From Candidatus Nomurabacteria bacterium (GTDB lineage: Bacteria > Patescibacteriota > Minisyncoccia > Phycocordibacterales > UBA918): 64,000 nt of DNA. Position numbers and translations under genes: made by a program. The notes under the pieces are model-generated. The model was not told the origin of the DNA, searched no databases, and was given only the letters and a program-made list of their open reading frames with translations. Positions 13,672 to 39,448 of this stretch are shown in pieces (position 1 is the stretch's first letter; every line of letters begins with the position of its first letter). The DNA lies in the NCBI GenBank assembly GCA_023898585.1, contig CP060229.1:594149-658148 (forward strand), in the 5' to 3' direction.

Positions 13672-13673
13672 TT

Positions 13674-14825
13674 ATGACGATAGAACCGCAAATTGGTGAA
13701 TTATCACATAAACGCCGACAACGATTCTTTTTCGTGTTGGTATTTATTTTTATACTGGCGTTGCCGGCGCTTATATTCTATACGACCGGATACCGACTGA
13801 GTTTCGAAAACGAAGAGACCAGTATTGTTTCGACCGGGGGAATTTATGTTACGACCGACAATCTTGAAGTCAGTGTATACATAGATGATAAAAAAGAAGA
13901 AAAACCCCGCCTCTTTCGCTCGGCCTATTACATTCAAAACATCGCGTCGGGACAACATAGAATCGTGGTTCAACGTCCGGATTTGTACACCTGGGTCAAG
14001 GTACTGCCGGTTGATCCTCATATCGTTATAGAGGCATCGTCTTTCAATATGCCTCTTCTGCCACATTTGCGACCAATAACCAGATACACAACAAAGACAA
14101 ACATGCCGGTATTTTTTGTGTCCTCGACTTCAATAGATGTTTTACCGGGGGCTACCTCCACCATCCCATATTTGCTCGCCACTTCGACAGCCACCTCGAC
14201 TTTTAATCTGAACGAAGAATATATCTTCGTCGAAAGTCTTTTCAGCACGACTTCGACATCCAGCAAATCGGTTTTTGATATATTTTTGAATAATTTTGAA
14301 CGCTTTGGTTTTGCCACCTCCAGTTCCGGTGTTGATGATTATGCACCAGAAGAGGAATTTATTCGAAACGGTAACTCAGTATTGATTGAAAGAGATAATG
14401 AGTTGTATGTCGTATGGCAAGGTGGCCTGAATAACATCCCGCACTATTTTTGTGTATCCGGTATCAGACCAAGCTCTACAGCCAAACGCTATGGACAACA
14501 TGTCGCTGACGAGATAAAAAGAATGTCAATCTCCACCTCGAGCCCTTTGCTGATTGATGGTAACAGAGTTTGTCGCTCGGAAATAAAACTTGATCGCCTG
14601 AGACAAGATGTTTATTTTTATGACTTCTTTCCTGATAATTCAGACCTGGTATTGTTACAGTTGGAAGACGGACTCTATGTAACGGAGATCGATGATCGTT
14701 CCTGGCAGAATTCACAAATGATCTATCCCGGAAAAGATTTTCGAGTGGTGGTGGAAAACAACGCGATTTTTATTGAAAAAAATGAGATGTATTTCGAGAT
14801 TATTACGGAAATTGAACCGAAGTAA
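13674..14825 (+). CDS. Membrane-anchored PEGA-domain protein, likely partner of the GT2 synthase
   Basis: Starts 3 nt after the GT2 stop. N-terminal TM helix. GGIYVTTDNLEVSVYIDD...GQHRIVVQRPDLYTWVKVLPV fits the PEGA beta-sandwich pattern. Confidence 0.55.
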   Translation: MTIEPQIGELSHKRRQRFFFVLVFIFILALPALIFYTTGYRLSFENEETSIVSTGGIYVTTDNLEVSVYIDDKKEEKPRLFRSAYYIQNIASGQHRIVVQRPDLYTWVKVLPVDPHIVIEASSFNMPLLPHLRPITRYTTKTNMPVFFVSSTSIDVLPGATSTIPYLLATSTATSTFNLNEEYIFVESLFSTTSTSSKSVFDIFLNNFERFGFATSSSGVDDYAPEEEFIRNGNSVLIERDNELYVVWQGGLNNIPHYFCVSGIRPSSTAKRYGQHVADEIKRMSISTSSPLLIDGNRVCRSEIKLDRLRQDVYFYDFFPDNSDLVLLQLEDGLYVTEIDDRSWQNSQMIYPGKDFRVVVENNAIFIEKNEMYFEIITEIEPK

Positions 14826-18889: not shown

Positions 18890-20986
18890 ATGCCAGCGAA
18901 AAAACCAGCCAAAAAAGCCGTAAAAAAGAACGGACATCATTACGACGCTTCTTCCATTTCGGTCCTTGAAGGATTGGAACCGGTTCGGAAACGCCCCGGA
19001 ATGTACATCGGCACAACCGGTCCGGACGGACTCCATCACTTAATATGGGAAGTGTTTGACAACTCGCGCGATGAAGCGATGGGTGGTTTTGCCGACAGAG
19101 TGGAAGTGGCTTTGTTGCCTGATAATTACATACGGGTGGTCGACAACGGTCGCGGTATTCCGGTTGATATACACAAACAAACCAAAGTTTCCGCCCTTGA
19201 AACCATCCTCACCACCCTTCACGCCGGCGGTAAATTTGGAGGAGAAGATTCCGGCTACAAATCATCCGGAGGCTTGCACGGAGTCGGTGTGTCGGTGGTA
19301 AATGCTCTCTCGACTCACATGATCGCTGAGGTTCATCGTGACGGTGCTTACTGTATTCAGGAATACAACATCGGTAAAGCCAAAGCTAAGGTTAAAAAAG
19401 TCGGCGCTTCCAAACTAAACGGCACCATCATTACTTTCAAAGCCGATCCCGATATTTTTAGTGTCATAGAGTATGACTATAAGCGAATTGTCAGTCGTCT
19501 TCGTCAGCAAGCGTATTTGGTCAAAGCCATGCATGTTACCGTTATCGATGCTCGTGAACTGGACGAAAAATCACAAGCAAAACTCGATCTAAAAGGTAAG
19601 CAATATTTGGCCGATGAACACCTGGAAGTGCCGTCGCAGAGTTTTTATTTTGAAGGAGGTCTCCGTTCGCTAGTTTCTTTCAGTAACAAGTACCAGAAAC
19701 CGATTCATAAAAATATTTTTTATGTTGAGAAAAATGACGCCACTCCCGAGGTGATGGCGGTCGAGGTTGCTTTACAATACGTTGATGATATTGCTCCTCG
19801 TATCACAGCTTTTGCTAACAACATCTACAATCCCGAGCAAGGTACTCACGTAACCGGTTTTAAAACGGCTCTGACTCGAACTCTTAACAATTACGCTAAG
19901 AAAAATAATTTTTTCTCAGTCAAAGATAAAGACACCGGCTTTACCGGAGATGATGTGCTTGAAGGGATTACCGCGGTGATATCGATCAAGATGGGGTCTG
20001 ACATTCAGTTTGAAGGTCAAACCAAAGCTAAGCTAGGATCGGTGGAGGCGCGTGGCGCGACAGAATCAGTCTTCAGCGAAGCTTTTAACGCTTTTCTGGA
20101 AGAGAATCCCGACGACGCCAAGGCTATTGTTAACAAGGTGATCATTGCGGTAAAAGCTCGGAAGGCAGCTAAGGCGGCTAAGGACAGCGTGCTTCGAAAG
20201 GGAGCTCTGGAAGGCATGTCTTTGCCGGGCAAGTTGGCCGACTGTCAGAGTAAGAAGGCGGAGAACTCAGAAATTTTCATAGTGGAGGGAGACTCGGCTG
20301 GTGGTTCGGCTAAAATGGGTCGTGATCGAAAGACTCAAGCAGTGTTGCCTCTTCGAGGTAAGATTCTTAATGTCGAACGGGCTCGTATCGATAAAATGCT
20401 GGCTTCGGAGCAAATCAAGAATTTGGTGATAGCACTAGGTACGGCCATTGGTGACGTTTTTGATGTTTCCAAGTTACGCTATCATAAAATAATCATTGCG
20501 ACTGATGCTGATGTTGACGGAGCACACATAAGGACTCTGTTGCTGACACTTTTCTTCCGTTACTTCAGGCCTCTTATCGATGAGGGGTATGTCTATATTG
20601 CTCAACCACCTCTCTATAAAATTCAAAAAGGCCGTGATTCGCGTTACGCATTCACCGACGAAGAAAAGTTCGCTATTCTTAAAGATATGGGCGAAGACGT
20701 CAACGAAGATGTTCCCGACGAAGAAGAAAGTGAAGAGGAAGAATCGGAAACAGTCGGTAAAAAAGGAGGCAAGGTTCGTATTCAAAGGTATAAGGGTCTC
20801 GGTGAAATGAACGCTGAAGAATTGGCTGAAACAACTATGAAAATCGAGAATCGAATTTTGAAACAAGTGTCAGTAGATGATGCGCAGGAAGCAGACAAAG
20901 TATTCGACATCCTGATGGGAACTGATGTGTCAAGCAGAAAATCATTTATTCAGAGTAACGCGAAGATGGCGACTTTGGACATTTAG
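18890..20986 (+). CDS. gyrB: Type IIA topoisomerase ATPase subunit (DNA gyrase B-like) with Lys-rich N-terminal extension
   Basis: GHKL ATPase motifs (HHLIWEVFDNSRDEA, GLHGVGVSVVNALS), TOPRIM (EGDSAGGS) and a C-terminal tail. No gyrA adjacent. Confidence 0.85.
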   Translation: MPAKKPAKKAVKKNGHHYDASSISVLEGLEPVRKRPGMYIGTTGPDGLHHLIWEVFDNSRDEAMGGFADRVEVALLPDNYIRVVDNGRGIPVDIHKQTKVSALETILTTLHAGGKFGGEDSGYKSSGGLHGVGVSVVNALSTHMIAEVHRDGAYCIQEYNIGKAKAKVKKVGASKLNGTIITFKADPDIFSVIEYDYKRIVSRLRQQAYLVKAMHVTVIDARELDEKSQAKLDLKGKQYLADEHLEVPSQSFYFEGGLRSLVSFSNKYQKPIHKNIFYVEKNDATPEVMAVEVALQYVDDIAPRITAFANNIYNPEQGTHVTGFKTALTRTLNNYAKKNNFFSVKDKDTGFTGDDVLEGITAVISIKMGSDIQFEGQTKAKLGSVEARGATESVFSEAFNAFLEENPDDAKAIVNKVIIAVKARKAAKAAKDSVLRKGALEGMSLPGKLADCQSKKAENSEIFIVEGDSAGGSAKMGRDRKTQAVLPLRGKILNVERARIDKMLASEQIKNLVIALGTAIGDVFDVSKLRYHKIIIATDADVDGAHIRTLLLTLFFRYFRPLIDEGYVYIAQPPLYKIQKGRDSRYAFTDEEKFAILKDMGEDVNEDVPDEEESEEEESETVGKKGGKVRIQRYKGLGEMNAEELAETTMKIENRILKQVSVDDAQEADKVFDILMGTDVSSRKSFIQSNAKMATLDI

Positions 20987-20991
20987 AACCT

Positions 20992-21228
20992 ATGGTGAAA
21001 ATAATTTCCGTAGCTCTTATTGTGTTGATTTTTGTGTTGGGAGCGTATTATTTTTTGATGCAAAATCGACAACCAACCAAGCAAGAAATATGTGCGAGTT
21101 ACGATGGGGGACTCCGTGGAGGATCGTGCCTTGAAGGTGCGCCTGATTACTGTCGAGTGGTAATTTATCGGGCTGGTTCGGATTCGGGAATGCAGGATGG
21201 AGGAAGTTGCGGATATGCTGAACAGTAA
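20992..21228 (+). CDS. Small membrane/secreted protein (78 aa), Gly/Cys-containing
   Basis: N-terminal TM helix. Followed by a bidirectional terminator (AACTGCCT...AGGCAGTT). Confidence 0.35.
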   Translation: MVKIISVALIVLIFVLGAYYFLMQNRQPTKQEICASYDGGLRGGSCLEGAPDYCRVVIYRAGSDSGMQDGGSCGYAEQ

Positions 21229-21283
21229 AGAAAACTGCCTAGCAACGAAGTGCCAGGCAGTTTTACTGAGTTTAAGTCAATGG

Positions 21284-22348
21284 TTACTTAATGAACGATG
21301 CTGTTTTTACGAATCTGTCATTCAGTGAGTTTCTGTCAGTTGCTTCATCTATCGTCACTACGAATTCATGGATCGGATCTTTGTTGGTAGAGAAACCAAC
21401 AGCCAGCACTGCCCGCTCATTTGGTTTTAGTGGTTTTTGTTTTTCCGAGGAATAGGTACTACCATCAGGCAAGGTCACTTTAAAGTCCCACTCCTTTGAA
21501 GTTTTCGAACCGAGATTTATGACTTCAAACTGAATGGCACCGTTACTGTTTTGCTTTATTGGTCCAGTGTAAAAAGCACCACTTTTAATTGTTCCCAAAT
21601 TTAAGAATTTTGTCGATAAGTCGGTACGACCATTGGGGTCCGAGACAGGGATAGTATAGATGAATTTTTGCTCATAAGTCGGTTTGGACGGCTTTGTAGC
21701 GACAGTAGCAACTGTGTCAGTTGTGGTTTCTGTATCGGTCTCTTCCTCGGTTTCGAATTCCGTCTTTGTCGATGCGTCACCGTTGTCATCGGTTGCGAAA
21801 ACACTTTTCCTCTCGCTGTTAACAACGGTGATTGAGGCAGAGCCACTGTTTCGTGGCGTGGTGTCGTTGGTAGCCAGAAATGACACAGTATATTCGACGT
21901 CGGAATAACGGTCCTTCTCTGAGTCTATTGTCAGAGTAAGAGAATTCACATCACCAACATTGTAGTTTGTGTCGCAGGCAATGTTACGGATGCCTTCGAT
22001 ATTGGTTATATCGACAGCGACTCCCTCGCGACACTTATAAGAGAAGGTGAAACTGCCTTGTGTCTCTGTTTTGCCCCATGAAATATTTACGCTATCACCA
22101 GCGCTAATCAGGGTGTTGTCGCTACTTACCAACAATGGATTCTCGGTAGCGTCGCTAGTGTCATTCGTATTCAACCTTTGACCTTGATTTATTCCCTCGG
22201 CTAAGGAAGCAAGGGACGAAAAAGCGCCGGGCAAGACGTTTACCAACTGTATTGAAAGCCAAGCTATTAAAACGATAATACCGATAAAACCGGCGACTGC
22301 CAGAGATTTGAGAACCGAATCTTTTTTGTTTTGTGTAGCATCATTCAT
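21284..22348 (-). CDS. Membrane-anchored extracellular protein with T/E-rich linker (354 aa)
   Basis: N-terminal TM anchor, Thr/Glu/Asp low-complexity linker and beta-rich segments. No catalytic motif. Confidence 0.5.
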   Translation of the reverse strand: MNDATQNKKDSVLKSLAVAGFIGIIVLIAWLSIQLVNVLPGAFSSLASLAEGINQGQRLNTNDTSDATENPLLVSSDNTLISAGDSVNISWGKTETQGSFTFSYKCREGVAVDITNIEGIRNIACDTNYNVGDVNSLTLTIDSEKDRYSDVEYTVSFLATNDTTPRNSGSASITVVNSERKSVFATDDNGDASTKTEFETEEETDTETTTDTVATVATKPSKPTYEQKFIYTIPVSDPNGRTDLSTKFLNLGTIKSGAFYTGPIKQNSNGAIQFEVINLGSKTSKEWDFKVTLPDGSTYSSEKQKPLKPNERAVLAVGFSTNKDPIHEFVVTIDEATDRNSLNDRFVKTASFIK

Positions 22349-22488
22349 AATGCGCGAAAACTACCACTGTCATGGCGAATTGTCAATGTACAAAAGCTGA
22401 TTATTTACGTACTCTGAATATTGGTTATTTGATTGCAGGGGGCAGGGTCACCGATCCGACATATGTGCTTAGACATTACCTTGCTTCA

Positions 22489-22516
22489 TTGACTTTTGGT
22501 GAAGTAATGCTATAAT
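22489..22516 (+). promoter_or_regulatory. Strong sigma70-like promoter (TTGACT-16-TATAAT) upstream of sortase
   Basis: Consensus hexamers read directly. Confidence 0.55.
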
Positions 22517-22543
22517 TTTAACATTGATTTTAATGATTGAGTC

Positions 22544-23272
22544 ATGAACACCATTTTCGAAAAGATATGGGAGAAAAAGTTTGTGTTTTTGGGCACGTTT
22601 TTTCTGGTGTTCACTTTGTCATACATTGTCCTTCTGGCCGTTGATTTCTTACCCGAGCCGGTAACTAAAACAGAAGAATCAAAATCAGGGACCGACCAAG
22701 AGTCCTCCAAAGAATCTGCATCCGAATTGGATACTGAAGATGTTGAAGCGGTTGATGTATCGGGTGATGACATCTCCGCTCTTGAGATTGAATCAACGTC
22801 AACAGAGGATTTAGCAGTCAACGATAGTGAAGCGGTGAAACCAATCAGGATCGCGATCGCTAAAATTGACAAGGACATAGCTGTTCTTAATCCCACTTCT
22901 CGCACCATAGCCGACTTGGACGAGGCGCTACTTGGTGGTGTCGTAAGACATCCCGACTCAGCCACTTTGGCCCAAGAAGGTAACGTTTTTATTCTCGGCC
23001 ACTCCAGTTATCTGCCTAAAGTCTTCAATAAAAATTTTCAAGCATTTAATGGTATTCAAAATCTTGAATGGGGAGATGTGATTGAGGTTTATTCTGAGGA
23101 TTCTGTATACAAATACCAAGTGGTAAAAGTTTACCGAGCCAAGGCCAATGATGTGACAGTTCCTATCGCCGGGACAGGTAAAATGCTTACCTTGGCAACC
23201 TGCAACAGCTTTGGTAGTACCGACGATCGGTATATAGTGGAAGCAAAACAGATAGAGGTGGAAACCATCTAG
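22544..23272 (+). CDS. Sortase-family cysteine transpeptidase
   Basis: N-terminal TM anchor, acidic linker, His motif (FILGHSS) and catalytic TLATC (TLxTC) followed by Arg. Confidence 0.8.
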   Translation: MNTIFEKIWEKKFVFLGTFFLVFTLSYIVLLAVDFLPEPVTKTEESKSGTDQESSKESASELDTEDVEAVDVSGDDISALEIESTSTEDLAVNDSEAVKPIRIAIAKIDKDIAVLNPTSRTIADLDEALLGGVVRHPDSATLAQEGNVFILGHSSYLPKVFNKNFQAFNGIQNLEWGDVIEVYSEDSVYKYQVVKVYRAKANDVTVPIAGTGKMLTLATCNSFGSTDDRYIVEAKQIEVETI

Positions 23273-23435
23273 CAACTTGACAAAAGGTGAATTTACGGTA
23301 CATTATTAAATAATAGTGTTCTCCCGGTTGTACGGTTTATTTATTTAGTTCGTTTTCCTTGACGCATGTTTCTTTGTTGTTTCGTAAGCTTTGTTACTCT
23401 TGTGTATATATGGTGTAGGCAGGAGTATTAATTTT

Positions 23436-26400
23436 ATGAATAACCAAGATACTCGCATTATGAAAAAATATTCAAAGACCATTGCCAGTGTGATGGTGGT
23501 TTTTGCTATGACACTGTCAGCTGTGGCAAACCCATTTCTAACTGTGGCGGCATTCGATCAGTTTGATTCCCAATTTGGTTTTGACAATTCCTTTAATTTT
23601 GACAAGGACTTCGAATTTTCAAATTCTCAAGGATCGTCGAATGGAAACACTTTCGAATCCACCACTCCCGGTCAGGTGATAACCTCATCATCAGAGACAT
23701 TCACCGAATGTGTTCTCGAAGCTAGTCACGATGTTGTGACGGTGGGAGACAATATTACTCTCAACTGGCGAACCAGTGGTTTTGACAGTATCACTATCAA
23801 CGGCCAGTCTGTTTCTGGTAACAGTGGTTCTAAAGTCATTACCAATTTGCGTGAAAACTCCACTTTTACACTGCAGGCCTTGAGCAACAGTGGTTCAAGT
23901 TGTTTTCAGCAAGTACAAGTTACTTGTCTTCCTCCGGAAGAGCCGAAGGAATGTAAGCTTGAGATTGAGAAGACGGTAAACACGACTACCGCCGTACCGG
24001 GCGATAATCTTACCTATACAATCACGGTAAAAAATACCGGTGACGCCGACTGTACCGGAGGAGGGGTAAAGATCGAAGATGTAGTTGATAATAACCTGAG
24101 TTATTTGAGCCACCAATTAAGCGGTAATTTCAGTGCCGGTTACGGAGGTGATCCTGTCTACACCACCAACAATCGCACTCTGCATTTTAATGGCAATGTT
24201 CTAAATCCCGGTGAATCAGGAACTATTACTTGGATCGGTAAAGTAAACGCCCCCACTCAATGTGGAGACTTCCAGGTGAAGAATCAAGCCAAGGCTTCTG
24301 CCAAGGAACTAAATAATTTTCAGAGTTGGGTATACAGTCAAACTGTAAAAACTGACATTGATAATGATTGTCCGGAACCGGACGGGTGTGTGCTTGATGT
24401 CGATAAGACGGTAAACAAAACCACCGCTGTACCAGGTGATAACCTCACTTACACCATCACGGTAAAAAATACCGGTGACACCGATTGTACCGGGAGTGGT
24501 GTTTTGATTGAGGATGTGGTTGATCCGAACATCAGTTACCTGAGTCATAGTTTGAGCAATGATTTCCTCGCCGGATATCTTAATATTCCTGTCTACACCA
24601 CCAACAATCGCACTCTGCATTTTAATGGCAACATCTTGACTCCCGGTGAATCAGGAACCATTTCTTGGGTCGGTAAAGTCAGCGCTCCTAATCAGTGTGG
24701 TGATTTTGAAGTTACAAACCAAGCCAAAGCAACGGCTGTTGAGTTGGATAATTTTCAGACTTGGGCATATAGCCAGGTTGTAAAAACTGTTGTCGATAAT
24801 GACTGTGTGGTTGAGGATGAATTCGCCACAGTGGTTGCTCATAAAATTGTTTGTTCAAACGAGGCTGAATTGCCGAATTACGGTAACGATGGTCCGAACA
24901 TTACATCCAACACCGCTACCGATTGGGTTGCTACTCACAACAGTTGTTCACTGGTTTCCGGATGGGAATTCGAATGGACCGACAACCAAATCAACGACCC
25001 CGGCGACACACTGATCGGCCGGGCCGGTTCACCTTGGAACACTTTTGGTCCAACTGATGGAAACGGAAAAACTTCAACCGTGATCAATCTAACCAATTTG
25101 ACAAACGACCAAGTTTGGTTCAGGGAAGTGTTGCAAAATGGATATATTCCATTTACTCATGGAGCAAACGCCGGAACGAATATTGATAATGTTTCAGCTG
25201 AATTCTATTGTGGCAGTGACGTTATTAACTATGACAATCGAGATTATATACAAGGAATGCAAGATGATGGTGTCTATTATTGTGTAGCTTGGAATTCTCC
25301 GATACCAGAGGTACCCGCTCCAACCTGTGATTTGTTCACAGCCAATCCAACGGCCATAACCGCAGGCGACAGTTCGACTCTAACTTGGGAGACATCGCAT
25401 GCTAGTCAAGTCTTCTTGAATAATGGCATCGGAGAGGTGGCACACGACGGCTCTATAGCTGTTTCTCCTCTAGCCGATATTGTCTACAAACTTACTGTTA
25501 TTGGAGAGGAAGACAAGCGAGTTGAATGTGAAGTTCCTATTAATGTCTCTCTCGATTCGGTACCGGTTTGTGAATTGTTCACCGCGACTCCCAATTCACT
25601 TCCGTACGGAGGAGGAAGTGTGGCCTTGAATTGGAAAGTTTCTAATGCTTCCCAAGTGTCCATCTCTCCTTTGGTCGGTTCTGTTGAATTGATCGGCACA
25701 CGAAATGTAAATGTAGCGGAAGGTACCACTTTCATTTTAACTGCGACTGATGACAATGGAGACAAGGTGACTTGCCCGGCTCCGGTTGCTGTGGCTGATC
25801 CGGAACCAGATCCTATCACATGTCAAAACAACGTCTCTTTCTCTGCTTCTGACACGTCCATCAGACGAGGTGGTTCATCCACTCTTACTTGGAGCACGAC
25901 CGATATCGACTCAGTGTCTATAAGTGGTATAAACGAAACTTCGTTGTCAGGAAGTAAAAAAGTTTCACCCTCAAATGATATCACTTACACTTTAACCGCA
26001 ACAAAAGGGAATAATTCAATAAACTGTCCGGTTTCGATTGATGTTTCGAGTGGTGGTGGCGGTGGAGGAAGTGTGTCACCAAGTTGTGAGTTGGATATTT
26101 CTGATACCAAAATTAAAGCTGGTGAGAAAATCACTTTGGAGTGGGACACATCAAGAGCGACCGAAGTAACACTGACAGACGACAAAGGTAAGGTTCTGTT
26201 TACAACGGATGATTACCTAGCTAAGGATAAAGTTGATTATTACGATGGCTCGATCACCCTGAAGCCAACCCGAGACACCGAATATACACTGTTGGCGGAA
26301 CGAGGTTCAAGAGACGAAGAGTGTAAAGTAAAAGTTAAAGTCGAGGATGACGTGGTTGTTTTACAAACTAGAGACCAGCAACCATTGGTAGCCGGCATCT

Positions 26401-27341
26401 CTCTAAGTCAAGTGCCATACACCGGATTTGAAGCAGGTCCGATCATGACCGCTATGTTCTACATTCTTTTGATTGCTTGGGCAGTGTACGTCAGTTACCT
26501 GTTGGTGATACGAAGACAGGTGTCTTCAGTTGGTGGGGGAGGAGGTGAAGTGTTTTCCGTTAAAGAAGAAAAAAAAGCATCAATGCGACAGAAGGAGGAG
26601 TCAGTACGACCCGACGTATTTGTAGCTTCTGTTACGACAAGTCCCGCTCCGTCTGATGTCACCCCGGCTAATTTACCAACCGGTATGCCTGTTATCGGCT
26701 ATGAAAATCACATTGAAGATGAGGGTGATGGTGAGACTGACGAGACAAACCCGCATCAAGTTGATGACGCTTTTGTCACCGCTTTGGAGAATCGCGCTCA
26801 CAGTCAAAAAGCACTTTTGTCCAGCGATGCTGTACGGTACTTTATTGGAACAACTACAAATGAGGCGGAACGTAATGAAATACTTGATGTTGTTATCAAA
26901 GAAGCAAAAAACAATTATCCGCTTGAGGACGGTTGGATTGTGATAAATGAATCAAGAATGCGAAACCTTTGTGAAGTTTGTAAAAACAATAAGCAATCAT
27001 CGGAATTCTCATCGTTTATCCCTGCTGTTGTGCCGGAAGGCACTGGCTCTCTTGCGGAAGCAATTGTAACCGGTAACGTGGTCGCCGCTTACCAAATGAT
27101 CGGCAATCGACCAATGTTTGCTTTGGCTGATGCTTCGGCCGATCTTGACGCTCTGTATCGACAGAGGAAAGGAGGCAAAGAGCAAGTCTCAAATCTCTTG
27201 AAAAAGGAGTCAGAGAAATTGTCTGATGAAAAAATAAAAAATATGATTTCAGCTTTGACCGGGGCGTTAGATGGTGTATATACCGATGAAGCGTCTGCGG
27301 TAAAGATGGCGATCATGAAAGCAGTTAAGGAAGTATCGTAA
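23436..27341 (+). CDS. Giant (about 1300 aa) secreted surface protein with two DUF11-type repeat domains, Ig-like repeats, a VPYTG sorting-like signal, TM helix and an unusually long (about 280 aa) C-terminal domain
   Basis: ATG 13 nt after AGGAG. Signal peptide KKYSKTIASVMVVFAMTLSAVA. Two copies of KTVNxTTAVPGDNLTYTITVKNTGD[AT]DCTG..EDVVD..SYLSH (DUF11-like). QVPYTG followed by the hydrophobic segment IMTAMFYILLIAWAVYVSYLLV and RRQ. The ORF then continues to 27341. Confidence 0.7.
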   Translation: MNNQDTRIMKKYSKTIASVMVVFAMTLSAVANPFLTVAAFDQFDSQFGFDNSFNFDKDFEFSNSQGSSNGNTFESTTPGQVITSSSETFTECVLEASHDVVTVGDNITLNWRTSGFDSITINGQSVSGNSGSKVITNLRENSTFTLQALSNSGSSCFQQVQVTCLPPEEPKECKLEIEKTVNTTTAVPGDNLTYTITVKNTGDADCTGGGVKIEDVVDNNLSYLSHQLSGNFSAGYGGDPVYTTNNRTLHFNGNVLNPGESGTITWIGKVNAPTQCGDFQVKNQAKASAKELNNFQSWVYSQTVKTDIDNDCPEPDGCVLDVDKTVNKTTAVPGDNLTYTITVKNTGDTDCTGSGVLIEDVVDPNISYLSHSLSNDFLAGYLNIPVYTTNNRTLHFNGNILTPGESGTISWVGKVSAPNQCGDFEVTNQAKATAVELDNFQTWAYSQVVKTVVDNDCVVEDEFATVVAHKIVCSNEAELPNYGNDGPNITSNTATDWVATHNSCSLVSGWEFEWTDNQINDPGDTLIGRAGSPWNTFGPTDGNGKTSTVINLTNLTNDQVWFREVLQNGYIPFTHGANAGTNIDNVSAEFYCGSDVINYDNRDYIQGMQDDGVYYCVAWNSPIPEVPAPTCDLFTANPTAITAGDSSTLTWETSHASQVFLNNGIGEVAHDGSIAVSPLADIVYKLTVIGEEDKRVECEVPINVSLDSVPVCELFTATPNSLPYGGGSVALNWKVSNASQVSISPLVGSVELIGTRNVNVAEGTTFILTATDDNGDKVTCPAPVAVADPEPDPITCQNNVSFSASDTSIRRGGSSTLTWSTTDIDSVSISGINETSLSGSKKVSPSNDITYTLTATKGNNSINCPVSIDVSSGGGGGGSVSPSCELDISDTKIKAGEKITLEWDTSRATEVTLTDDKGKVLFTTDDYLAKDKVDYYDGSITLKPTRDTEYTLLAERGSRDEECKVKVKVEDDVVVLQTRDQQPLVAGISLSQVPYTGFEAGPIMTAMFYILLIAWAVYVSYLLVIRRQVSSVGGGGGEVFSVKEEKKASMRQKEESVRPDVFVASVTTSPAPSDVTPANLPTGMPVIGYENHIEDEGDGETDETNPHQVDDAFVTALENRAHSQKALLSSDAVRYFIGTTTNEAERNEILDVVIKEAKNNYPLEDGWIVINESRMRNLCEVCKNNKQSSEFSSFIPAVVPEGTGSLAEAIVTGNVVAAYQMIGNRPMFALADASADLDALYRQRKGGKEQVSNLLKKESEKLSDEKIKNMISALTGALDGVYTDEASAVKMAIMKAVKEVS

Positions 27342-27375
27342 TCAAACTAAGGGTTACCCTTCGTAGCCAAAAAAC

Positions 27376-27415
27376 AAAAGAGGCGCGCCCTTGGGTGCGC
27401 CTCTTTTGTTTTTTG
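27376..27415. terminator. Bidirectional terminator between the surface-protein gene and thrS
   Basis: AAGAGGCGC-gcccttgggt-GCGCCTCTT with A-run and T-run flanks. Confidence 0.7.
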
Positions 27416-27455
27416 CGTATTTTGTAGCATCGTAACACCCGAAAAACGACACAAA

Positions 27456-29207
27456 TTACACGTCCGCTTCCGGGTTCAGTTTTTCGATAAGTTCTTCCAC
27501 TTTGTAACTTTTCGACTCCATCGTATCTCGTGACTCAAGTGTAACAGTTTTGTCCTCCTTCTCCTTATCTCCCACCACTATGAAATAAGGCAGTCTCATC
27601 TTTTTGGCATTGCGTATTTTTTTACCCATACTTTCGTTAGAGGTGTCTATTTCCGTCCTGAAACCGGCTTCAAGTAGCTGTTGGTAAATTTCCATGGCGT
27701 ACTCGTTATGTGTATCAGCAACCGGAATAACGGCAATTTGTGTCGGACAGAGCCAGAGTGGAAAATTGCCCGCGAAGTGTTCAATAATGATTGACATAAA
27801 TCGTTCCAGAGAACCGGCAATGGCGCGGTGTATCATAACCGGACGTTCCTTCTTTCCCGTATTGTCTGTGTACTCGAGCCCAAAGCGCTCTGGCATAACA
27901 AAGTCAAGCTGAGCTGTTGCTAATTGCCACTCGCGACCGATGGCGTCCTTAAACATAAAATCCAGTTTGGGTCCGTAAAAGGCAGCCTCTCCCTCAACTC
28001 GTTTGTAGGGCAGGTTTAGTCTTGTGGCTACATTTTCCAGCATACTTTCAGCTTTAACCCAGTTTTCCGGATCGCCAAGATACTTTTCCGGTTCGGCTGG
28101 ATTGCTGACTGAGAGCGATACCCAGAATTTATTTTTCTCATACATGCCGAGTGCGGTGTAGAATTTCTCAATCACTTTTACGATGTTTTCAACCTCTTGG
28201 TCTATTTGTTCGACAGTGCAAAAGACGTGCCCATCGTCTTGAGTGATACTGCGCACTCGGCCGAGTCCAAGCAGTTCACCTGCTTGTTCATCGCGATAGA
28301 CCATCGTCGATTCGGCATAACGAATCGGCAGTTCTTTATAAGAACGAAGTTTGCTGTCAAAGATTTGCGTATGATGCGGGCAGTTCATCGGCTTCATAAC
28401 AAACTCTGCGTCAGTCTTGCCTTTGACATGAAATAGCTCATCTTTAAATTTTTCCCAGTGACCGGATGTCTTGTATAAGTCACTTTTAGTGATGTGTGGG
28501 ATAACAACTTTCGTGTAGCCAAACTTTAATTGTATAGACATTATTTTGTCTACTATCAAATCACGCATTAAAGTTCCGTTGGGAGTAAAAAGCGGAAGGC
28601 CGGGACCAACCAGTTCCGAGAAAGTGAACAGATCCAATTCTTTTCCTAGCTTTCGATGATCGCGTGCCTTAGCTTCTTCAATTTGTGTTTCGTACTCGCC
28701 CAACTCTTCTTTGGTGTTAAAAGCGATTCCGTAGATACGGGTAAGCATTTTATTTTTTTCATCACCACGCCAGTAGGCACCGGCGATTTTGTCGAGCTTG
28801 AAGGCATCAGGATTGATTTCTGCTTTAGGGTTCTCCGAGTGGCCACCTCGGCAAAGATCGGTAAAACCGCCACAGGTGTACAAGGTAATTTTCTCTCCCT
28901 TATCTTCAATTTCGTCGATCAGTTCGAGTTTGAATTGGTTGCAGGCGAACATTTCGCGCGCTTTGTCTACCGAAACTTCCTCGTGGGTAAATCCATCCCA
29001 TTTATTCAAAAGTTTTTTCATCAACTTCTGTATTTGTTTCAAGTCCGCATCTCCTGGCGCTTCTCCATCGCCAAAGTCGATATCGTAGTAGAAGCCAGTG
29101 TCGATAGCAGGGCCGAGAGTTAGTTTGGCGTGAGGGTATTTTTCTAACACTGCTGCTGCCAATAGGTGGGCGAGAGTGTGTCGTTTAAATTCTAGTTGTC
29201 GATTCAT
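27456..29207 (-). CDS. thrS: Threonine--tRNA ligase (583 aa, N-terminally reduced)
   Basis: Class II core motifs (FRDE.., GLGRVRS, HRAIAGSLERF) and C-terminal anticodon-binding domain. Confidence 0.9.
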   Translation of the reverse strand: MNRQLEFKRHTLAHLLAAAVLEKYPHAKLTLGPAIDTGFYYDIDFGDGEAPGDADLKQIQKLMKKLLNKWDGFTHEEVSVDKAREMFACNQFKLELIDEIEDKGEKITLYTCGGFTDLCRGGHSENPKAEINPDAFKLDKIAGAYWRGDEKNKMLTRIYGIAFNTKEELGEYETQIEEAKARDHRKLGKELDLFTFSELVGPGLPLFTPNGTLMRDLIVDKIMSIQLKFGYTKVVIPHITKSDLYKTSGHWEKFKDELFHVKGKTDAEFVMKPMNCPHHTQIFDSKLRSYKELPIRYAESTMVYRDEQAGELLGLGRVRSITQDDGHVFCTVEQIDQEVENIVKVIEKFYTALGMYEKNKFWVSLSVSNPAEPEKYLGDPENWVKAESMLENVATRLNLPYKRVEGEAAFYGPKLDFMFKDAIGREWQLATAQLDFVMPERFGLEYTDNTGKKERPVMIHRAIAGSLERFMSIIIEHFAGNFPLWLCPTQIAVIPVADTHNEYAMEIYQQLLEAGFRTEIDTSNESMGKKIRNAKKMRLPYFIVVGDKEKEDKTVTLESRDTMESKSYKVEELIEKLNPEADV

Positions 29208-29973: not shown

Positions 29974-32900
29974 TCAAGAATCTATTGAAACCGGCTCACC
30001 AACCAACCTATCATCTCCCAATCTTTTCACCTTATCGATCAGGATACTCGGTTCATCATTGCGAAGGTTGAATTTACCTTTTACTGCAACGCAATTGCCG
30101 GGTACAAGCAGTTCGTGATTTTCTCTGTAAGTTTCGGGAAAAGCGACTGTTTCAATACTGTCTTTTTGATCTGCCAATTTTATAAAGGCCATCTTGTCGC
30201 CCTTCTTGGTGAGAAGTTCTTTCACCGACTCAATCAAACCGGTTGTGACCACTGTCGTTCCTTGATAACTGTTTTTGATTTTTTCGATGCTAGGACGCTT
30301 GGCGACCTCATCGGCAACCGCATTGAGCGGGTGACCGGAAACATAAACACCCAGCAATTCTTTTTCCCAAAGCAATTTCTGAGCCAGGGGAATATCTTTA
30401 GTCGGTTTCAGAGTGAGGTCATTGACGGCGTGATCTAGTCCACCAAAGAGAGAATCTTGATTGGCTTCCTTACCAACCACTTGTTCCCGATTGTAACTGA
30501 GTAGATTTTCAATATTGGTAAAAAATGTTCCTCGTTCGCCGAAGCTATCGAAGGCTCCCGTGGTGATCAGCGCTTCCATTGATTTTTTGTTCAGATTACG
30601 GTCGTGGATACGAGTGAGAAAATCTTGCATCGAAGTAAAAGCCCCATTGGTTTTTCTTTCTTCTATAATTACTTCCGCAATACCCGCCCCGAAGTTTTTT
30701 ATGGTAGTGAGACCGAAGCGGATGGTGTTTTTGTTTGGTACGACCGAAAAATCCGCGAATGATTCATTGATGTCCGGCGGAAGCACGGTGATTCCCATCC
30801 TTTCACACTCGTGGATGGAATCGGAGACTTTTTCGGTATCACCCGAATCGGCTGTGAGTACGGCAGACATGTATTCGACGGGGAAATTTGCCTTCATATA
30901 TGCTGTCTGGTAAGCGACACGTCCGTAGCTTGCAGCGTGGGCCTTATTGAAGCCGTAAGCGGCGAAAGGTTCAATCAATTTCCAAAGTTGCTCGGCTTTG
31001 GTCTCGGTGAGTCCGTGTTCAACAAAACCCTTAAACAACTTGTCTTTCTCGGCTGCCATCACTTCGGGAATCTTTTTTCCCATAGCCTTGCGCAGTTTGT
31101 CTGCTTCAAGCCATGAGTAGCCGGCCAGCTTTATGGAAATCATCATCACGTCATCCTGATAGGTGATAACCCCGTACGAACGTTCAATTACTTCTTCCAG
31201 TCTCGGATCAAGATAGGTAACCAATGAAGGATTGTGTTTGCGTTCGATATACTGAGGAATCATTTCCATCGGGCCTGGGCGATACAGCGCCACCATCGCA
31301 TTAATATCGTGGATGGTGGTCGGTTTTAGTTGCTTTAAGAAAGCTGTCATCCCGGTGCCGTTGAGCTGGAAAAGACCCATGGTTTCTCCTTTGGAGAGCA
31401 TTTCAAAGGTCTTAGGATCGTCAAGCGGTACATCTTCTATATCGATGGTTATTTTGTGTATCTTTTTTACACGCCTGACGGCGTCGGCCAAAATGGCCAA
31501 GTTTTTAATACCGAGAAAATCAAATTTCAGAAGACCGACTCCGTCTTCGCCCACACTGTGCATTTCGTACTGCGTAATCGACTTGCCAGTTTTGGAATCG
31601 ATTTGAATCGGTACATATTGATTGAGTGGTTTTGGGGCTATAACGACTCCGGCCGCATGTACACCAAGGTGTCTGACACGCCCCTCGATTTTTTTGGCCA
31701 AGTCGATGACCTCGCGCGACTCAGCGTCTTTTTGGTAGAGTTCTGCCAGGTCGGGCTCTATCTCCATCGCTCGGTCTATCGTCATAGGAAATCCCTGCGC
31801 TCCGAGAGGGATCATTTTAGCAATCCTGTCGCCGGTTGAATACGAATGTCCAAGAGCACGAGCGACATCCCGGACGGCAGCCTTAGCCATCATTGTTCCA
31901 AAGGTTCCAATCTGGGCTACTTTGTCAGAACCGTATTTTTCTTTGGCGTATTCTATGATTTCATCACGGCGATTATCGGCAAAGTCCATGTCTATATCGG
32001 GAGCCGATGGTCTTTCCGGATTAAGAAATCGCTCAAAAGGGAGGCGATATTCAAGCGGGTCGACGTTAGTAATCCCGAGCACATAAGTCGCGTAACTTCC
32101 GGCTACCGAACCCCTGATAGTGGTGTAGATTCCACGCTCGCGAGCCTCGCGCAATAAATCTCCAACAGCGAGGAAGTATGTGGAATAGCCCTTATTCTTG
32201 ATGACTTCTAGTTCATAATCAAGTCTTTTCTTGATGGTCGGATTATTTATATCGTGTTTTCTCCAAGCGACACCCTTGTAGGCCATGTCTTTAAGCTCAT
32301 CATCCGGAGTTTTACCGCTCTCAATTATGTAGTTCGGGAACTGCCAGGCTTCTTGTCCGAGCGTGATTTCGACATTGCACTCATTGGCTATTTTGACAGT
32401 GTTTTCAATCGCTTCCGGAACATCAACAAACCATTCCTTCATTTCGGCTTGGGTTTTGAAAGAAAAGTCTTCCGATATGTCGTGGTCGGCGGTGGTGTCT
32501 ACGACACCACCGTTTTGAATCTTAATCATCGTTTCTCTAGTCAGCCTGTCTTCCGGTTTCATGTAATAAACGTCATGGACAGCAACCAGGGGAGTCTTGG
32601 TCTTTTGGGCGAGTTTTTTTATTTTGGCTTGGTTTTCTTGGTGGCTGAATATTTCCGGGTGGTTGGATATTTCGAGATAGCAATCGTCGCCGAAAAGACT
32701 CTTATACCAATCCAATCGCTCGGACGCTTTTTCCGGATTGTTGTCTTTTAGAGCTTGTGCCACTTCGCCGGCAAAGGAGGGAATGATACAGACGAGATCT
32801 TGTTTCAGGTTTTCAATAAGTTGATCATCGATGCGTGGGCGGTAGTAAAAACCGTCGACATTGGAGCGAGTTACCATCTCGATGAGGTTTTGGTAACCCT

Positions 32901-33222
32901 TAAAAGTTTTGGCCAAGAGGACGAGTCGTGAATGTGGCCGATCAACCATTTCTTTATCGAAGCGGGTTCGGGGGGCGAGGAAAGCATCCAGTCCAATAAT
33001 GGGCTTAATACTTTCTTGCTGGCAAGCGTTGTAGAAATCGATGGCGCCATAGAGAGCACCGGCATCGGTGAGAGCTAGAGCGTCTTGTCCGTCGGCCTTA
33101 GCGCCGGCAACCAGTTCCTTCGGAGTAGGTACGGCGTTTAACAGAGAATACATTGAATGGACATGCAGGTGGATGAAATCGGCAGTCAGTTTCGAGTGAG
33201 GCATGATGTCAGTAGTATACAT
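29974..33222 (-). CDS. dnaE: DNA polymerase III alpha subunit (1082 aa)
   Basis: PHP domain start IHLHVHSMYSLLN, the polymerase core and a C-terminal OB region. Confidence 0.9.
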   Translation of the reverse strand: MYTTDIMPHSKLTADFIHLHVHSMYSLLNAVPTPKELVAGAKADGQDALALTDAGALYGAIDFYNACQQESIKPIIGLDAFLAPRTRFDKEMVDRPHSRLVLLAKTFKGYQNLIEMVTRSNVDGFYYRPRIDDQLIENLKQDLVCIIPSFAGEVAQALKDNNPEKASERLDWYKSLFGDDCYLEISNHPEIFSHQENQAKIKKLAQKTKTPLVAVHDVYYMKPEDRLTRETMIKIQNGGVVDTTADHDISEDFSFKTQAEMKEWFVDVPEAIENTVKIANECNVEITLGQEAWQFPNYIIESGKTPDDELKDMAYKGVAWRKHDINNPTIKKRLDYELEVIKNKGYSTYFLAVGDLLREARERGIYTTIRGSVAGSYATYVLGITNVDPLEYRLPFERFLNPERPSAPDIDMDFADNRRDEIIEYAKEKYGSDKVAQIGTFGTMMAKAAVRDVARALGHSYSTGDRIAKMIPLGAQGFPMTIDRAMEIEPDLAELYQKDAESREVIDLAKKIEGRVRHLGVHAAGVVIAPKPLNQYVPIQIDSKTGKSITQYEMHSVGEDGVGLLKFDFLGIKNLAILADAVRRVKKIHKITIDIEDVPLDDPKTFEMLSKGETMGLFQLNGTGMTAFLKQLKPTTIHDINAMVALYRPGPMEMIPQYIERKHNPSLVTYLDPRLEEVIERSYGVITYQDDVMMISIKLAGYSWLEADKLRKAMGKKIPEVMAAEKDKLFKGFVEHGLTETKAEQLWKLIEPFAAYGFNKAHAASYGRVAYQTAYMKANFPVEYMSAVLTADSGDTEKVSDSIHECERMGITVLPPDINESFADFSVVPNKNTIRFGLTTIKNFGAGIAEVIIEERKTNGAFTSMQDFLTRIHDRNLNKKSMEALITTGAFDSFGERGTFFTNIENLLSYNREQVVGKEANQDSLFGGLDHAVNDLTLKPTKDIPLAQKLLWEKELLGVYVSGHPLNAVADEVAKRPSIEKIKNSYQGTTVVTTGLIESVKELLTKKGDKMAFIKLADQKDSIETVAFPETYRENHELLVPGNCVAVKGKFNLRNDEPSILIDKVKRLGDDRLVGEPVSIDS

Positions 33223-38073: not shown

Positions 38074-38119
38074 ATATAACCCCTCAATCAAACCTTACAA
38101 CCACTGCATTTACCACAAC

Positions 38120-38704: not shown

Positions 38705-38729
38705 TATTCCTCTTTAAATAAAAGTCAGT

Positions 38730-39365: not shown

Positions 39366-39448
39366 ATTTCAAATAAAATATTTAAACTATAAGAAACCCC
39401 TGTGCACACGTAAAACAATCCATCTCCCCTCGGTGGTACAATATCACC

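What the first reader, a model, noticed from the sequence alone, without database searches (positions are those of the whole stretch)
21284..27341. Cell-surface module: membrane-anchored protein, sortase and a giant DUF11-repeat protein with a non-canonical VPYTG sorting signal
A sortase gene (TLATC catalytic Cys) with its own TTGACT-16-TATAAT promoter sits immediately upstream of a roughly 1300-aa secreted protein. That protein carries two near-identical DUF11-type repeats, Ig-like segments and a QVPYTG-hydrophobic-RRQ element resembling a sorting signal. Sortase and substrate as neighbours implies a housekeeping-sortase-dependent surface structure, such as an adhesin or S-layer-like coat, in an organism otherwise dominated by housekeeping genes. 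The VPYTG variant suggests an unusual sortase specificity.
Basis: partly seen in the sequence, partly recalled or inferred. Interest (0 to 1): 0.6.

Follow-up and report, generated by a model that had tools for sequence, protein, structure and literature searches.

The report
Sortase module with internal sorting signal
A Kaiserbacteria-type (CPR) bacterium carries a deeply conserved three-gene surface module in which the sortase's likely cut site (VPYTG) lies inside a membrane-spanning giant protein, so cutting would separate an outer fibre from a conserved inner domain that resembles part of a DNA clamp loader.

Summary
The sequence features are real. Present are a TM-anchored two-Ig-domain protein (21284-22348, minus strand), a sortase with the His/Cys/Arg triad and a near-consensus promoter, and a ~1300-aa protein with two DUF11/CLIPPER domains, five Cys-bounded Ig-like domains and VPYTG-TM-RRQ.

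The order gyrB-A-sortase-Big-thrS-dnaE recurs in about 200 related loci. VPYTGFEAGP and the TM helix are the least variable part of the protein.

Best reading (confidence about 0.6): a sortase of no established class cleaves VPYT|G. This releases a wall-linked fibrillar ectodomain and leaves a membrane-anchored cytoplasmic module.

Natural variants support this. Some lineages have lost the tail, some have a tail without an ectodomain, and three conserved A7-A9 sites need a -1 shift to reach the tail. At one of these sites standard decoding ends as a canonical signal (VPYTG-TM-KKKVS-stop).

I class it as a new variant of a known kind. Cleavage, the acceptor and the tail's function are untested.

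The parts
21284..22348 (-). Protein A (354 aa). It has an N-terminal cytoplasmic stub, a TM helix (about aa 10-42), a conserved juxtamembrane P.AFSSLASLAE helix, a disulfide-containing Ig-like domain, a disordered T/E/P-rich linker (about aa 183-216) and a C-terminal CARDB-like Ig domain.
21231..21264 (-). Terminator-like hairpin downstream of gene A.
   Evidence: 14-bp stem followed by a T-run.
22489..22516 (+). Promoter-like site TTGACT-16-(TG)TATAAT, ending 28 nt upstream of the sortase ATG.
   Evidence: Matches 11 of 12 positions and is the best site in 20900-27600. The total count of such sites in the region is not above the shuffled expectation (14 found against 11.1 expected).
22544..23272 (+). 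Membrane-anchored sortase (242 aa). It has an N-terminal TM helix (aa 11-40), an acidic linker and a catalytic domain with His153, Cys220 (TLATC) and Arg229.
   Evidence: Pfam PF04203 at 1.2e-19. NCBIfam class D, E and C models all score far below their cut-offs. The closest solved sequences are 4d70 and 2ln7. One copy is found next to the substrate gene in 73 loci, and the catalytic motifs are conserved.
23436..27341 (+). Big: a type-I bitopic surface protein of 1301 aa counted from ATG 23436. The ORF is open from TTG 23391.
   Evidence: ORF. AGGAG lies upstream of ATG 23436. Signal-peptide-like N-terminus and a single internal TM helix.
23436..23555 (+). Signal peptide region (MNNQDTRIMKKYSKTIASVMVVFAMTLSAVANPFLTVAAF).
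   Evidence: Hydropathy peak at ORF residues 28-55.
23946..24812 (+). Two tandem DUF11/CLIPPER domains (23946-24377 and 24381-24812).
   Evidence: Pfam PF01345, two stretches, and TIGR01451. The repeats are 76% identical to each other. CLIPPER is a CnaA-like stalk domain of fibrillar adhesins (PMC12617251).
24813..25310 (+). Cys-containing middle domain of unknown family (aa 475-640).
   Evidence: No hit in Pfam, NCBIfam or PHROGs.
25320..26333 (+). Four Cys-bounded Ig-like repeats (Ig2-Ig5), with a GGGGGG linker (26052-26072) before the membrane-proximal repeat. A fifth repeat of the same type (Ig1) lies at 23688-23933.
   Evidence: Cys spacing and pairwise local alignments. The membrane-proximal repeat and the Gly linker are conserved in homologues.
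26334..26426 (+). Conserved stalk (RDQQPLVAGISLSQ) and the VPYTG motif (26412-26426).
   Evidence: In the tabulated set of 77 loci, P, T and G are invariant and Y is present in 76. Position 1 is V in 73, I in 2 and T in 2. Of 120 motif-anchored metagenome loci, 109 carry the tail.
26427..26519 (+). FEAGP, TM helix (26442-26510) and RRQ stop-transfer (26511-26519).
   Evidence: F, A, G, T, FY, L, W and Y positions are invariant through the helix in 77 loci.
26520..26765 (+). Cytoplasmic linker, variable in length. It contains the conserved short motifs RPDVF (26607-26621) and PANLPTG (26664-26684) and an in-frame A8 run (26569-26576).
   Evidence: Alignment A1; coordinates.
26766..27338 (+). 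Conserved cytoplasmic tail domain (~190 aa): an AAA+ lid-like subdomain followed by a helical, collar-like subdomain.
27370..27413 (+). Strong hairpin terminator between Big and the convergent thrS.
   Evidence: 20-bp stem flanked by A/T runs.

Best explanation
This is a clade-wide envelope module of Paceibacteria/Kaiserbacteria-type CPR bacteria. It has three parts.

(1) Protein A is a type-II anchored protein with two Ig-like domains; the C-terminal one is CARDB-like.
(2) The sortase is membrane-anchored and fits no established class. It is nearest to classes D and E.
(3) Big is a ~1300-aa type-I membrane protein. Its ectodomain is a fibrillar stalk of CLIPPER/DUF11 and Ig-like domains.

Shown: the anatomy, the conservation and the synteny.

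Inferred:
- After Sec export, Big is held in the membrane by its single TM helix.
- The neighbouring sortase recognises VPYTG at the outer membrane face and cleaves between Thr and Gly.
- The sortase then transfers the ectodomain to an envelope acceptor. That acceptor could be a peptidoglycan precursor or, less likely, protein A.
- Because the motif is internal, cleavage splits the protein in two. The products are a covalently anchored surface fibre and a remnant that starts with GFEAGP, spans the membrane with a highly conserved helix, and carries a cytoplasmic AAA+-lid/clamp-loader-collar-like domain.
- The remnant is probably a functional unit in its own right, for example an oligomerising or partner-binding module that reports or organises surface-fibre assembly. 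Its actual activity is unknown.
For: Anatomy.

Motif and sortase co-occur. The sortase is present upstream in all 70 GTDB loci with enough flank and in 57 of 62 motif-anchored metagenome loci.

The motif has the [VIT]PxTG form and lies directly before a TM helix and R/K residues. It is almost invariant across 77 loci.

Separability of ectodomain and tail:
- Lineages L100, L122, L165 and L184 have lost the tail domain. They keep VPYTG-TM and a short conserved C-terminus.
- An L065 paralogue ends VPHTG-TM-ARK plus 22 aa, with no tail.
- At recoding site 1, found in seven loci, standard decoding stops at VPYTG-TM-KKKVS. That is a canonical sorting-signal layout.
- L066, L071 and L073 have TM plus tail with no ectodomain.

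Tail fold and conservation.

CLIPPER/DUF11 domains are typical stalks of fibrillar adhesins that carry sorting domains (PMC12617251).

Sortases are common in CPR bacteria (PMC6744442).
Against: - No cleavage has been shown.
- Canonical sorting signals lie at the extreme C-terminus and have poorly conserved TM segments. Here 304 residues follow the motif, and both FEAGP and the helix are nearly invariant. That pattern would also fit a permanent transmembrane protein.
- No Gram_pos_anchor or LPXTG-anchor model matches.
- L066, L071 and L073 keep an apparently active sortase without the motif, so the enzyme must have another role or substrate there.
- The acceptor is unknown.
- I could not scan a whole genome for other substrates.
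Confidence: 0.6

Rival explanations
1. Big is never cut. It is a permanent bitopic protein that physically couples an extracellular stalk to a cytoplasmic clamp-loader-like domain. VPYTGFEAGP is a structural or interaction motif at the membrane interface, for example one contacting the TM segments of the sortase or of protein A. The neighbouring sortase works on other substrates.
For: - Residues after TG and the whole TM helix are nearly invariant, which is atypical for sorting signals.
- The fused architecture holds in 72 of 80 GTDB loci and 102 of 120 metagenome loci.
- The sortase is retained where the motif is absent.
- No LPXTG-anchor model matches.
Against: - The motif has exactly the sortase-signal form and position.
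- Tail-less natural forms end like canonical signals.
- Ectodomain-less tail proteins exist. Covalent continuity is therefore not required.
- The sortase adjacency is essentially universal.
Confidence: 0.25
2. The sortase acts like a pilus-type (class C-like) enzyme. It joins VPYT of one Big molecule to a lysine of another Big molecule, or to protein A. The result is a polymer or a Big-A conjugate, not a peptidoglycan-anchored monomer.
For: - CLIPPER/DUF11 and Ig-like domains are typical of pilins and fibrillar adhesins.
- Protein A is always encoded next door and has invariant surface lysines such as the LKPNE motif.
- VPxTG-type motifs occur in pilins. This last point is from my own knowledge and was not tested here.
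Against: - No pilin motif was identified.
- Only one sortase is present per locus.
- LKPNE is simply part of the CARDB fold signature.
- Class C models score far below their cut-off (30.9 bits against 160).
Confidence: 0.1
3. The long ORF in the window is an artefact: an assembly or frameshift fusion of a normal sortase substrate with a downstream gene.
For: Some relatives have the two parts in different frames. The window has an A8 run in the linker.
Against: - The fused reading frame is found in 72 of 80 species-level GTDB loci and 102 of 120 metagenome loci.
- Most of the representative proteins listed carry the tail at the C-terminus of 600-1900-aa proteins.
- The linker motifs are conserved in frame.
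Confidence: 0.02

Closest known systems
LPXTG cell-wall sorting signal with sortase anchoring (Staphylococcus aureus SrtA / protein A paradigm)
   Same: A pentapeptide of the [LVI]PxTG type, directly followed by a hydrophobic helix and basic residues. A sortase with the His-Cys-Arg triad is encoded next to the substrate.
   Different: - The signal is internal, with a 304-residue C-terminal extension that includes a conserved folded cytoplasmic domain.
- Residues P1'-P5' (FEAGP) and the TM helix are nearly invariant.
- The sortase fits no defined class.
- No anchor HMM matches.
Dedicated sortase-substrate pairs (class D/E sortases; class GN 'marine' sortase TIGR03784 with its single neighbouring target)
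   Same: One sortase gene lies beside one conserved target with a lineage-specific motif. The best, though sub-threshold, model matches are class D and E. 4d70 and 2ln7 are the closest solved sequences.
   Different: Scores are 40-50 bits against cut-offs of 140-165. The target architecture (bitopic, with a cytoplasmic domain) is different. That these other systems are dedicated pairs is from my own knowledge, not tested here.
Fibrillar adhesins with CLIPPER (DUF11) stalks (PMC12617251)
   Same: Signal peptide, tandem CLIPPER and Ig-like stalk domains, and a sorting element at the membrane-proximal end.
   Different: No recognisable adhesive head domain. The isopeptide triad was not checked. 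It occurs in a CPR bacterium, with a cytoplasmic extension.
Clamp-loader subunits gamma/tau, delta and delta' (domains II-III), and RFC
   Different: - It lacks the P-loop ATPase domain I.
- There is no detectable sequence similarity.
- It is tethered to the membrane behind a surface protein.
- The resemblance is of fold only.
dnaX recoding (E. coli -1 frameshift at A_AAA_AAG; Thermus thermophilus A9 transcriptional slippage) and mxiE-type slippage, which gives a longer product (PMC1088944, PMC5009743)
   Same: In relatives, though not in the window, in-phase A7-A9 runs, some of them exactly A_AAA_AAG, separate a short 0-frame product from a longer -1-frame product.
   Different: The gene family is different. 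No consistent downstream stimulatory structure was found. Expression is untested.
C-peptide remnant sensing after sortase A processing in Streptococcus gordonii (as cited in PMC11326707)
   Same: It sets a precedent that the membrane remnant left by sortase cleavage can have a function of its own.
   Different: There the remnant is a short peptide sensed by a histidine kinase. Here it would be a ~300-residue protein with its own folded domain.

Membership tests
Sortase (Pfam PF04203) | Domain HMM above the gathering threshold | tested here: met
   70.8 bits against a cut-off of 26.6, covering residues 103-236.
Sortase (Pfam PF04203) | Catalytic His, Cys (TLxTC) and Arg | tested here: met
   His153 (LGHSS), Cys220 (TLATC) and Arg229 (DDRYIVEA). 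They align to the solved sortases 4d70 and 2ln7 and are conserved in 73 orthologues.
Sortase classes A-F / GN (NCBIfam class models) | Score above a class-specific cut-off | tested here: not met
   Scores against cut-offs: SrtD-type 50 vs 140; class D 43 vs 165; class E 40 vs 160; class C 31 vs 160; GN 20.5 vs 158. The generic sortase model TIGR01076 also falls short of its cut-off (33.9 vs 39.35).
LPXTG-type cell-wall sorting signal | [LVI]PxTG-like pentapeptide followed by a hydrophobic segment and basic residues | tested here: met
   VPYTG, FEAGP, a 23-residue helix and RRQ. The pattern is conserved in 77 loci.
LPXTG-type cell-wall sorting signal | Located at the extreme C-terminus, with only a few residues after the basic patch | tested here: not met
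   304 residues follow the motif in the window. The same holds in 72 of 80 GTDB loci and 102 of 120 metagenome loci. The criterion is met only in some relatives: site-1 0-frame products ending KKKVS-stop.
LPXTG-type cell-wall sorting signal | Match to the Gram_pos_anchor / LPXTG-anchor HMMs | tested here: not met
   No such family appears in the Pfam or NCBIfam scans at E <= 0.1.
LPXTG-type cell-wall sorting signal | Cleavage between T and G, and transfer to the wall by the sortase | not testable with these tools
   This needs biochemistry or proteomics.
DUF11 / CLIPPER (PF01345) | Domain HMM above the gathering threshold | tested here: met
   77.5 bits against 24.6, two stretches. TIGR01451 scores 65.3 against 24.
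DUF11 / CLIPPER (PF01345) | Lys-Asn isopeptide with a catalytic Asp | not tested
   Candidate residues (EKTV, IEDVVD, VKNQAK) were seen by eye only.
Clamp-loader subunit (DnaX / HolA / HolB) | AAA+ (or degenerate) domain I preceding the lid and collar | tested here: not met
   The tail domain has only about 190 residues. What precedes it is a disordered linker and a TM helix.
Clamp-loader subunit (DnaX / HolA / HolB) | Sequence-family membership | tested here: not met
   No hit in Pfam, NCBIfam or PDB sequences.
Clamp-loader subunit (DnaX / HolA / HolB) | Fold of domains II-III (lid plus collar) | tested here: inconclusive
CARDB (PF07705), for protein A | HMM match or fold match | tested here: inconclusive
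Programmed -1 frameshift / transcriptional slippage (relatives only) | In-phase X_XXY_YYZ heptamer or A>=7 run at the frame junction, with the downstream part in the -1 frame | tested here: met
   There are three sites. All have A7-A9 runs and all need a -1 shift. They occur in 7, 4 (plus 4 tail-less) and 2 loci.
Programmed -1 frameshift / transcriptional slippage (relatives only) | Evidence that the -1 frame is coding directly from the slip site | tested here: met
   Substitutions by codon position are 14/12/52 for L078 against L079. KKKGFLGF matches the RRDSILGF consensus of the fused genes.
Programmed -1 frameshift / transcriptional slippage (relatives only) | Downstream stimulatory RNA structure / measured frameshifting | tested here: inconclusive
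   Folding z-scores range from +1.4 to -3.35 with no common structure. Expression is not testable here.

The most novel reading that the evidence does not exclude
Sortase is used here as a maturation enzyme for a two-part machine, not for ordinary C-terminal anchoring. It would cut a universally conserved bitopic protein of Paceibacteria at an internal VPYT|G site. That yields a wall-linked surface fibre and a membrane-tethered cytoplasmic clamp-loader-collar-like module. Through its invariant TM helix and collar-like domain, this module would oligomerise or bind an AAA+/replication-type partner, coupling envelope assembly to a cytoplasmic process. Some lineages tune the ratio of tail-less to tailed product by -1 slippage at conserved A9 sites.
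Probability: 0.2. Interest if true: 0.85.

Novelty: new variant of a known kind. Interest (0 to 1): 0.68.

Why it matters
Very little is known about how CPR/Patescibacteria build their envelopes and attach to hosts. This module is one of the few surface systems that is syntenic and nearly universal across a whole class of them, so it is a prime candidate for a core envelope structure.

For sortase biology it would be a first. As far as I could find, no other putative sorting signal is followed by a conserved folded cytoplasmic domain. That would make the 'remnant' a protein in its own right.

The clamp-loader-like fold has no ATPase core and sits on the inner face of the membrane. It is an unexplained domain family (510 representative clusters) with no annotation in any library searched.

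The conserved A9 recoding sites in relatives add a new candidate case of two-product decoding. Public metatranscriptomes could test it.

Tried and rejected
- A Foldseek search against afdb50 could not be run because the library was not installed.
- Sequence searches with the tail found nothing usable. These were the PDB (only OSCP at E 0.12), Pfam (scattered chance hits), NCBIfam and PHROGs. The middle domain (aa 475-640) also has no family.
- A literature search for 'VPYTG' gave only unrelated papers.
- My first regex-based classification of loci was wrong in two ways. It mislabelled L004 and L080 as split (corrected). It also labelled many metagenome loci as 'short form' (corrected by tblastn).
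- I looked for a common RNA structure downstream of the slip sites. None was consistent, so I do not claim a ribosomal-frameshift stimulator; transcriptional slippage is equally possible.
- The 78-aa ORF at 20992-21228 between gyrB and gene A is not conserved in any related locus. I dropped it from the module.
- I considered that the neighbours gyrB and dnaE, together with the clamp-loader-like fold, point to a replication role. I rejected this as evidence. Those genes are not co-oriented in an operon with the module, and synteny is generally high in this clade.
- I considered an assembly-error explanation for the split genes. It is unlikely for three reasons: the identical A9 junction occurs on 12 contigs from at least four runs; the three sites are each shared by several lineages; and all need the same -1 shift. 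Without reads it cannot be excluded.
Full report
**1. What is in the window**

The region holds three genes between gyrB (18890-20986) and a convergent thrS (27456-29207) and dnaE (29974-33222).

Gene A (21284-22348, minus strand) encodes a 354-aa protein with one N-terminal TM helix. The sortase gene (22544-23272) diverges from gene A. The large ORF ('Big', open from 23391 to 27341) follows 118 nt after the sortase stop codon.

Big most likely starts at ATG 23436, which is preceded by AGGAG. That gives 1301 aa.

Protein A is 100% identical to a partial protein of a Candidatus Kaiserbacteria MAG. All related loci come from Paceibacteria, Kaiserbacteria or Nomurabacteria-type CPR bacteria. The rest of the window encodes housekeeping functions: RF, S2, PheRS, RNase HII, NusB, RNase III, SMC, RNase R, RpoB, DnaG and sigma-70.

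**2.

Most of them hold.

- The sortase domain is clear, at 70.8 bits against a cut-off of 26.6.
- TLATC is present (Cys220), with His153 and Arg229.
- TTGACT-16-TATAAT, with a TG extension, is the best promoter-like site in the region. The total number of such sites is not above the shuffled expectation.
- Two DUF11 domains are real. They are 76% identical to each other, not near-identical.
- Five Cys-bounded Ig-like repeats are present.
- VPYTG, then FEAGP, a 23-residue helix and RRQ lie at residues 1008-1043.

One point was not noticed: 304 residues follow the motif. Big is therefore a type-I bitopic membrane protein. It has a ~950-aa ectodomain, one TM helix and a ~270-aa cytoplasmic region.

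**3. The cytoplasmic region is a conserved domain, not junk**

A homology search with the C-terminal 337 aa found 99 hypothetical proteins from the same clade. A profile search of 1.84 billion representatives found 510 proteins. Among the 150 listed, the domain lies at the C-terminus of 600-1900-aa proteins or forms a stand-alone ~200-aa protein.

The alignment shows three parts:
- a very conserved stalk, motif and TM block;
- a linker of variable length carrying the short motifs RPDVF and P.NLPTG;
- a ~190-aa domain with many invariant positions.

No Pfam, NCBIfam, PHROG or PDB sequence family matches this domain.

I read the domain as an AAA+ lid plus a collar-like helical domain with no ATPase core. 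This is a fold resemblance only.

**4. Comparative genomics**

A scan of one genome per GTDB species returned 80 loci. The order gyrB(+), A(-), sortase(+), Big(+), thrS(-), dnaE(-) is kept in essentially all of them. The sortase is present in all 70 loci with enough upstream sequence, always as a single copy with conserved catalytic motifs.

In 72 of the 80 loci the motif, TM and tail are in one ORF, as in the window. L081 is also fused, but its tail is truncated.

Across the 77 tabulated loci the motif reads VPYTG in 72, IPYTG in 2, TPYTG in 2 and VPHTG in 1. F, A and G in FEAGP are invariant, as are T, FY, L, W and Y inside the helix.

A second sampling was anchored on the motif itself, using the degenerate DNA pattern for PYTGFEAGP in metagenome contigs.
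- 102 are fused with the tail;
- 6 are split from the tail;
- 1 has a lid-only tail;
- 4 have no tail domain, and a fifth (L184) has the same short C-terminus on a contig too short to show what follows;
- 7 run off the contig.

Subfamilies with a different helix (the FW type) keep the same synteny and the same sortase. The motif therefore marks this one family in both samples.

**5. Natural experiments on separability**

(a) L066, L071 and L073 have the sortase followed directly by a ~340-aa protein. That protein has only hydrophobic N-terminal segments, the linker and the tail. It has no ectodomain and no VPYTG.

(b) In L100, L122 and L165 the tail domain is gone; L184 has the same ending but is too short to show this. 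All four proteins end about 35 residues after the helix with a conserved peptide, RKKVEALVAKYTGR(S/N)W or a close variant.

(c) L065 has a second, tail-less paralogue that ends VPHTG-TM-ARK plus 22 aa.

(d) In three groups of relatives the tail lies in the -1 frame relative to the ectodomain. In each group the junction is an in-phase A7-A9 run.
- Site 1 lies directly after the helix: NTA AAA AAA AAG GTT TCT TAG. The 0-frame ends ...KKKVS-stop. It occurs in seven loci, and the identical junction is on 12 contigs from at least four sequencing runs.
- Site 2 has the 0-frame ending (R/K)KKV..L.AK(H/Y)....W-stop. Four loci have it with the tail, and this ending is also the C-terminus of the tail-less lineages.
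- Site 3 has the 0-frame ending YVEKKTM..-stop, in two loci.

Directly after site 1 the -1 frame encodes KKKGFLGF, which matches the RRDSILGF consensus of the fused genes. Substitutions there fall mainly on third codon positions (14/12/52).

All sites need the same -1 shift, which is equivalent to one extra A. This is the signature of dnaX-type frameshifting or A9 transcriptional slippage (PMC1088944, PMC5009743, PMC4066793). No common downstream structure was found, and without reads a systematic A10-to-A9 miscall cannot be fully excluded.

The window's own gene is fused. It has an in-frame A8 run in the linker (26569-26576).

**6. Interpretation**

Four things make sortase recognition the most economical explanation: the form of the motif, its position at the outer face of the only TM helix, the basic residues after the helix, and the essentially universal adjacency to a catalytically intact sortase.

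The tail-less forms, and the site-1 forms where standard decoding stops after KKKVS, show that the same motif and helix also work in a layout identical to a canonical C-terminal sorting signal. The ectodomain-less forms show that the TM helix plus tail is a unit that can stand alone.

Together these observations fit a model in which the sortase cuts VPYT|G. The cut separates a wall-linked (or otherwise covalently anchored) fibrillar ectodomain from a membrane-anchored cytoplasmic module.

Two features suggest that the remnant is functional and not merely debris:
- the unusual invariance of FEAGP and of the helix;
- the conservation of the tail.

There is a precedent that sortase remnants can have a role. 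In Streptococcus gordonii the C-peptide left after sortase A processing is sensed by a two-component system (as cited in PMC11326707).

Which acceptor is used, whether protein A takes part, and what the tail binds are all unknown. Protein A is a TM helix plus two Ig-like domains, the second CARDB-like.

The main rival is that the protein is never cut and the motif is a structural element. I give that about 0.25.

**7. Comparison with what is known, and novelty**

Sortases are known to be frequent in CPR bacteria (PMC6744442). Public annotations already call this gene 'sortase'. CLIPPER/DUF11 stalks are known from fibrillar adhesins (PMC12617251).

Several things are not described in anything I could search:
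- a sorting-signal-like element placed internally, ahead of a conserved folded cytoplasmic domain;
- the clamp-loader-like domain family itself;
- the class-wide synteny of the three genes;
- the conserved A-run recoding sites.

The sortase meets the family definition but fits no class model. The signal meets the motif, helix and charge criteria but fails the C-terminal-position criterion.

I therefore file the finding as a new variant of a known kind, a sortase-substrate system. The probability is modest (about 0.2) that the full split-protein and coupling mechanism is right.

**8. Caveats**

- Everything functional is inferred from sequence, predicted structure and comparative genomics.
- Several GTDB record titles name other taxa (Saccharibacteria, Patiriisocius, Acidimicrobiales, Azotimanducaceae) for contigs with typical Paceibacteria synteny. 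These are probably mislabelled or contaminated bins.
- I could not scan complete genomes for other sortase substrates.

Noticed in passing
Relatives: L078:10189, L079:10189, L083:977, L087:3909, L113, L133, L167 (site 1); L001:7893, L002:3283, L094, L206 (site 2); L082:1454, L123 (site 3): There are three conserved A7-A9 recoding sites between the VPYTG-TM part and the tail domain. All are in-phase slippery heptamers and all need a -1 shift. At site 1 the 0-frame product ends VPYTG-TM-KKKVS-stop. Each site is shared by several lineages, and the site-1 junction is identical on 12 contigs from at least four runs.
   Followed up: yes
window 26569-26576: An in-frame A8 run (GAA GAA AAA AAA GCA) lies in the cytoplasmic linker of the window's own gene. 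A one-base slippage there would meet a stop about 30 codons later (one extra A) or about 17 codons later (one A fewer) and give a tail-less product. 10 of 71 fused loci have an A>=6 run in this linker.
   Followed up: partly
L066:9869-10882, L071:9890-10972, L073:9247-10266: In three species the gene after the sortase encodes only hydrophobic N-terminal segments, the linker and the tail domain. There is no ectodomain and no VPYTG, and a RarA/MgsA-like AAA+ gene lies directly downstream. The sortase keeps its catalytic residues.
   Followed up: partly
L065:11269-12783: A second, tail-less paralogue (504 aa) lies downstream of the main gene. It ends VPHTG-TM-ARK plus 22 aa.
   Followed up: no
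L081 (tail ends ...EDGWVVLNEDRIKNILN-stop) and L112: These tails are truncated after the first (lid-like) subdomain, which suggests the two subdomains can be separated.
   Followed up: no
L100, L122, L165, L184: This lineage has lost the tail domain. A remnant of the linker (PPNLPVG) survives in the -1 frame, and the 0-frame C-terminal peptide is conserved.
   Followed up: partly
window 35619-36521: A single ORF combines a NusB domain with a NUDIX hydrolase domain (300 aa). The same fusion is called in the relative L002 (10461-11357).
   Followed up: no
window 37381-40607: A run of small co-oriented ORFs. The one scanned against Pfam that matched (38730-39365) has a type IV pilin N-terminal methylation motif, so this may be a pilin or pseudopilin cluster. 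It would be a second surface system in the window.
   Followed up: no
window 20992-21228: A 78-aa ORF between gyrB and gene A, with a TM helix and a Cys/Gly-rich tail. It has no counterpart in any of the related loci.
   Followed up: partly
L007, L016, L055, L059, L068 and others (record titles): Contigs with typical Paceibacteria synteny are deposited under other names (Saccharibacteria, Patiriisocius, Acidimicrobiales, Azotimanducaceae). These are probably mislabelled or contaminated bins.
   Followed up: no
window 5852-7213 and 13644-14825: Two sizeable ORFs (453 and 393 aa) among housekeeping genes have no Pfam family at E <= 1e-5.
   Followed up: no
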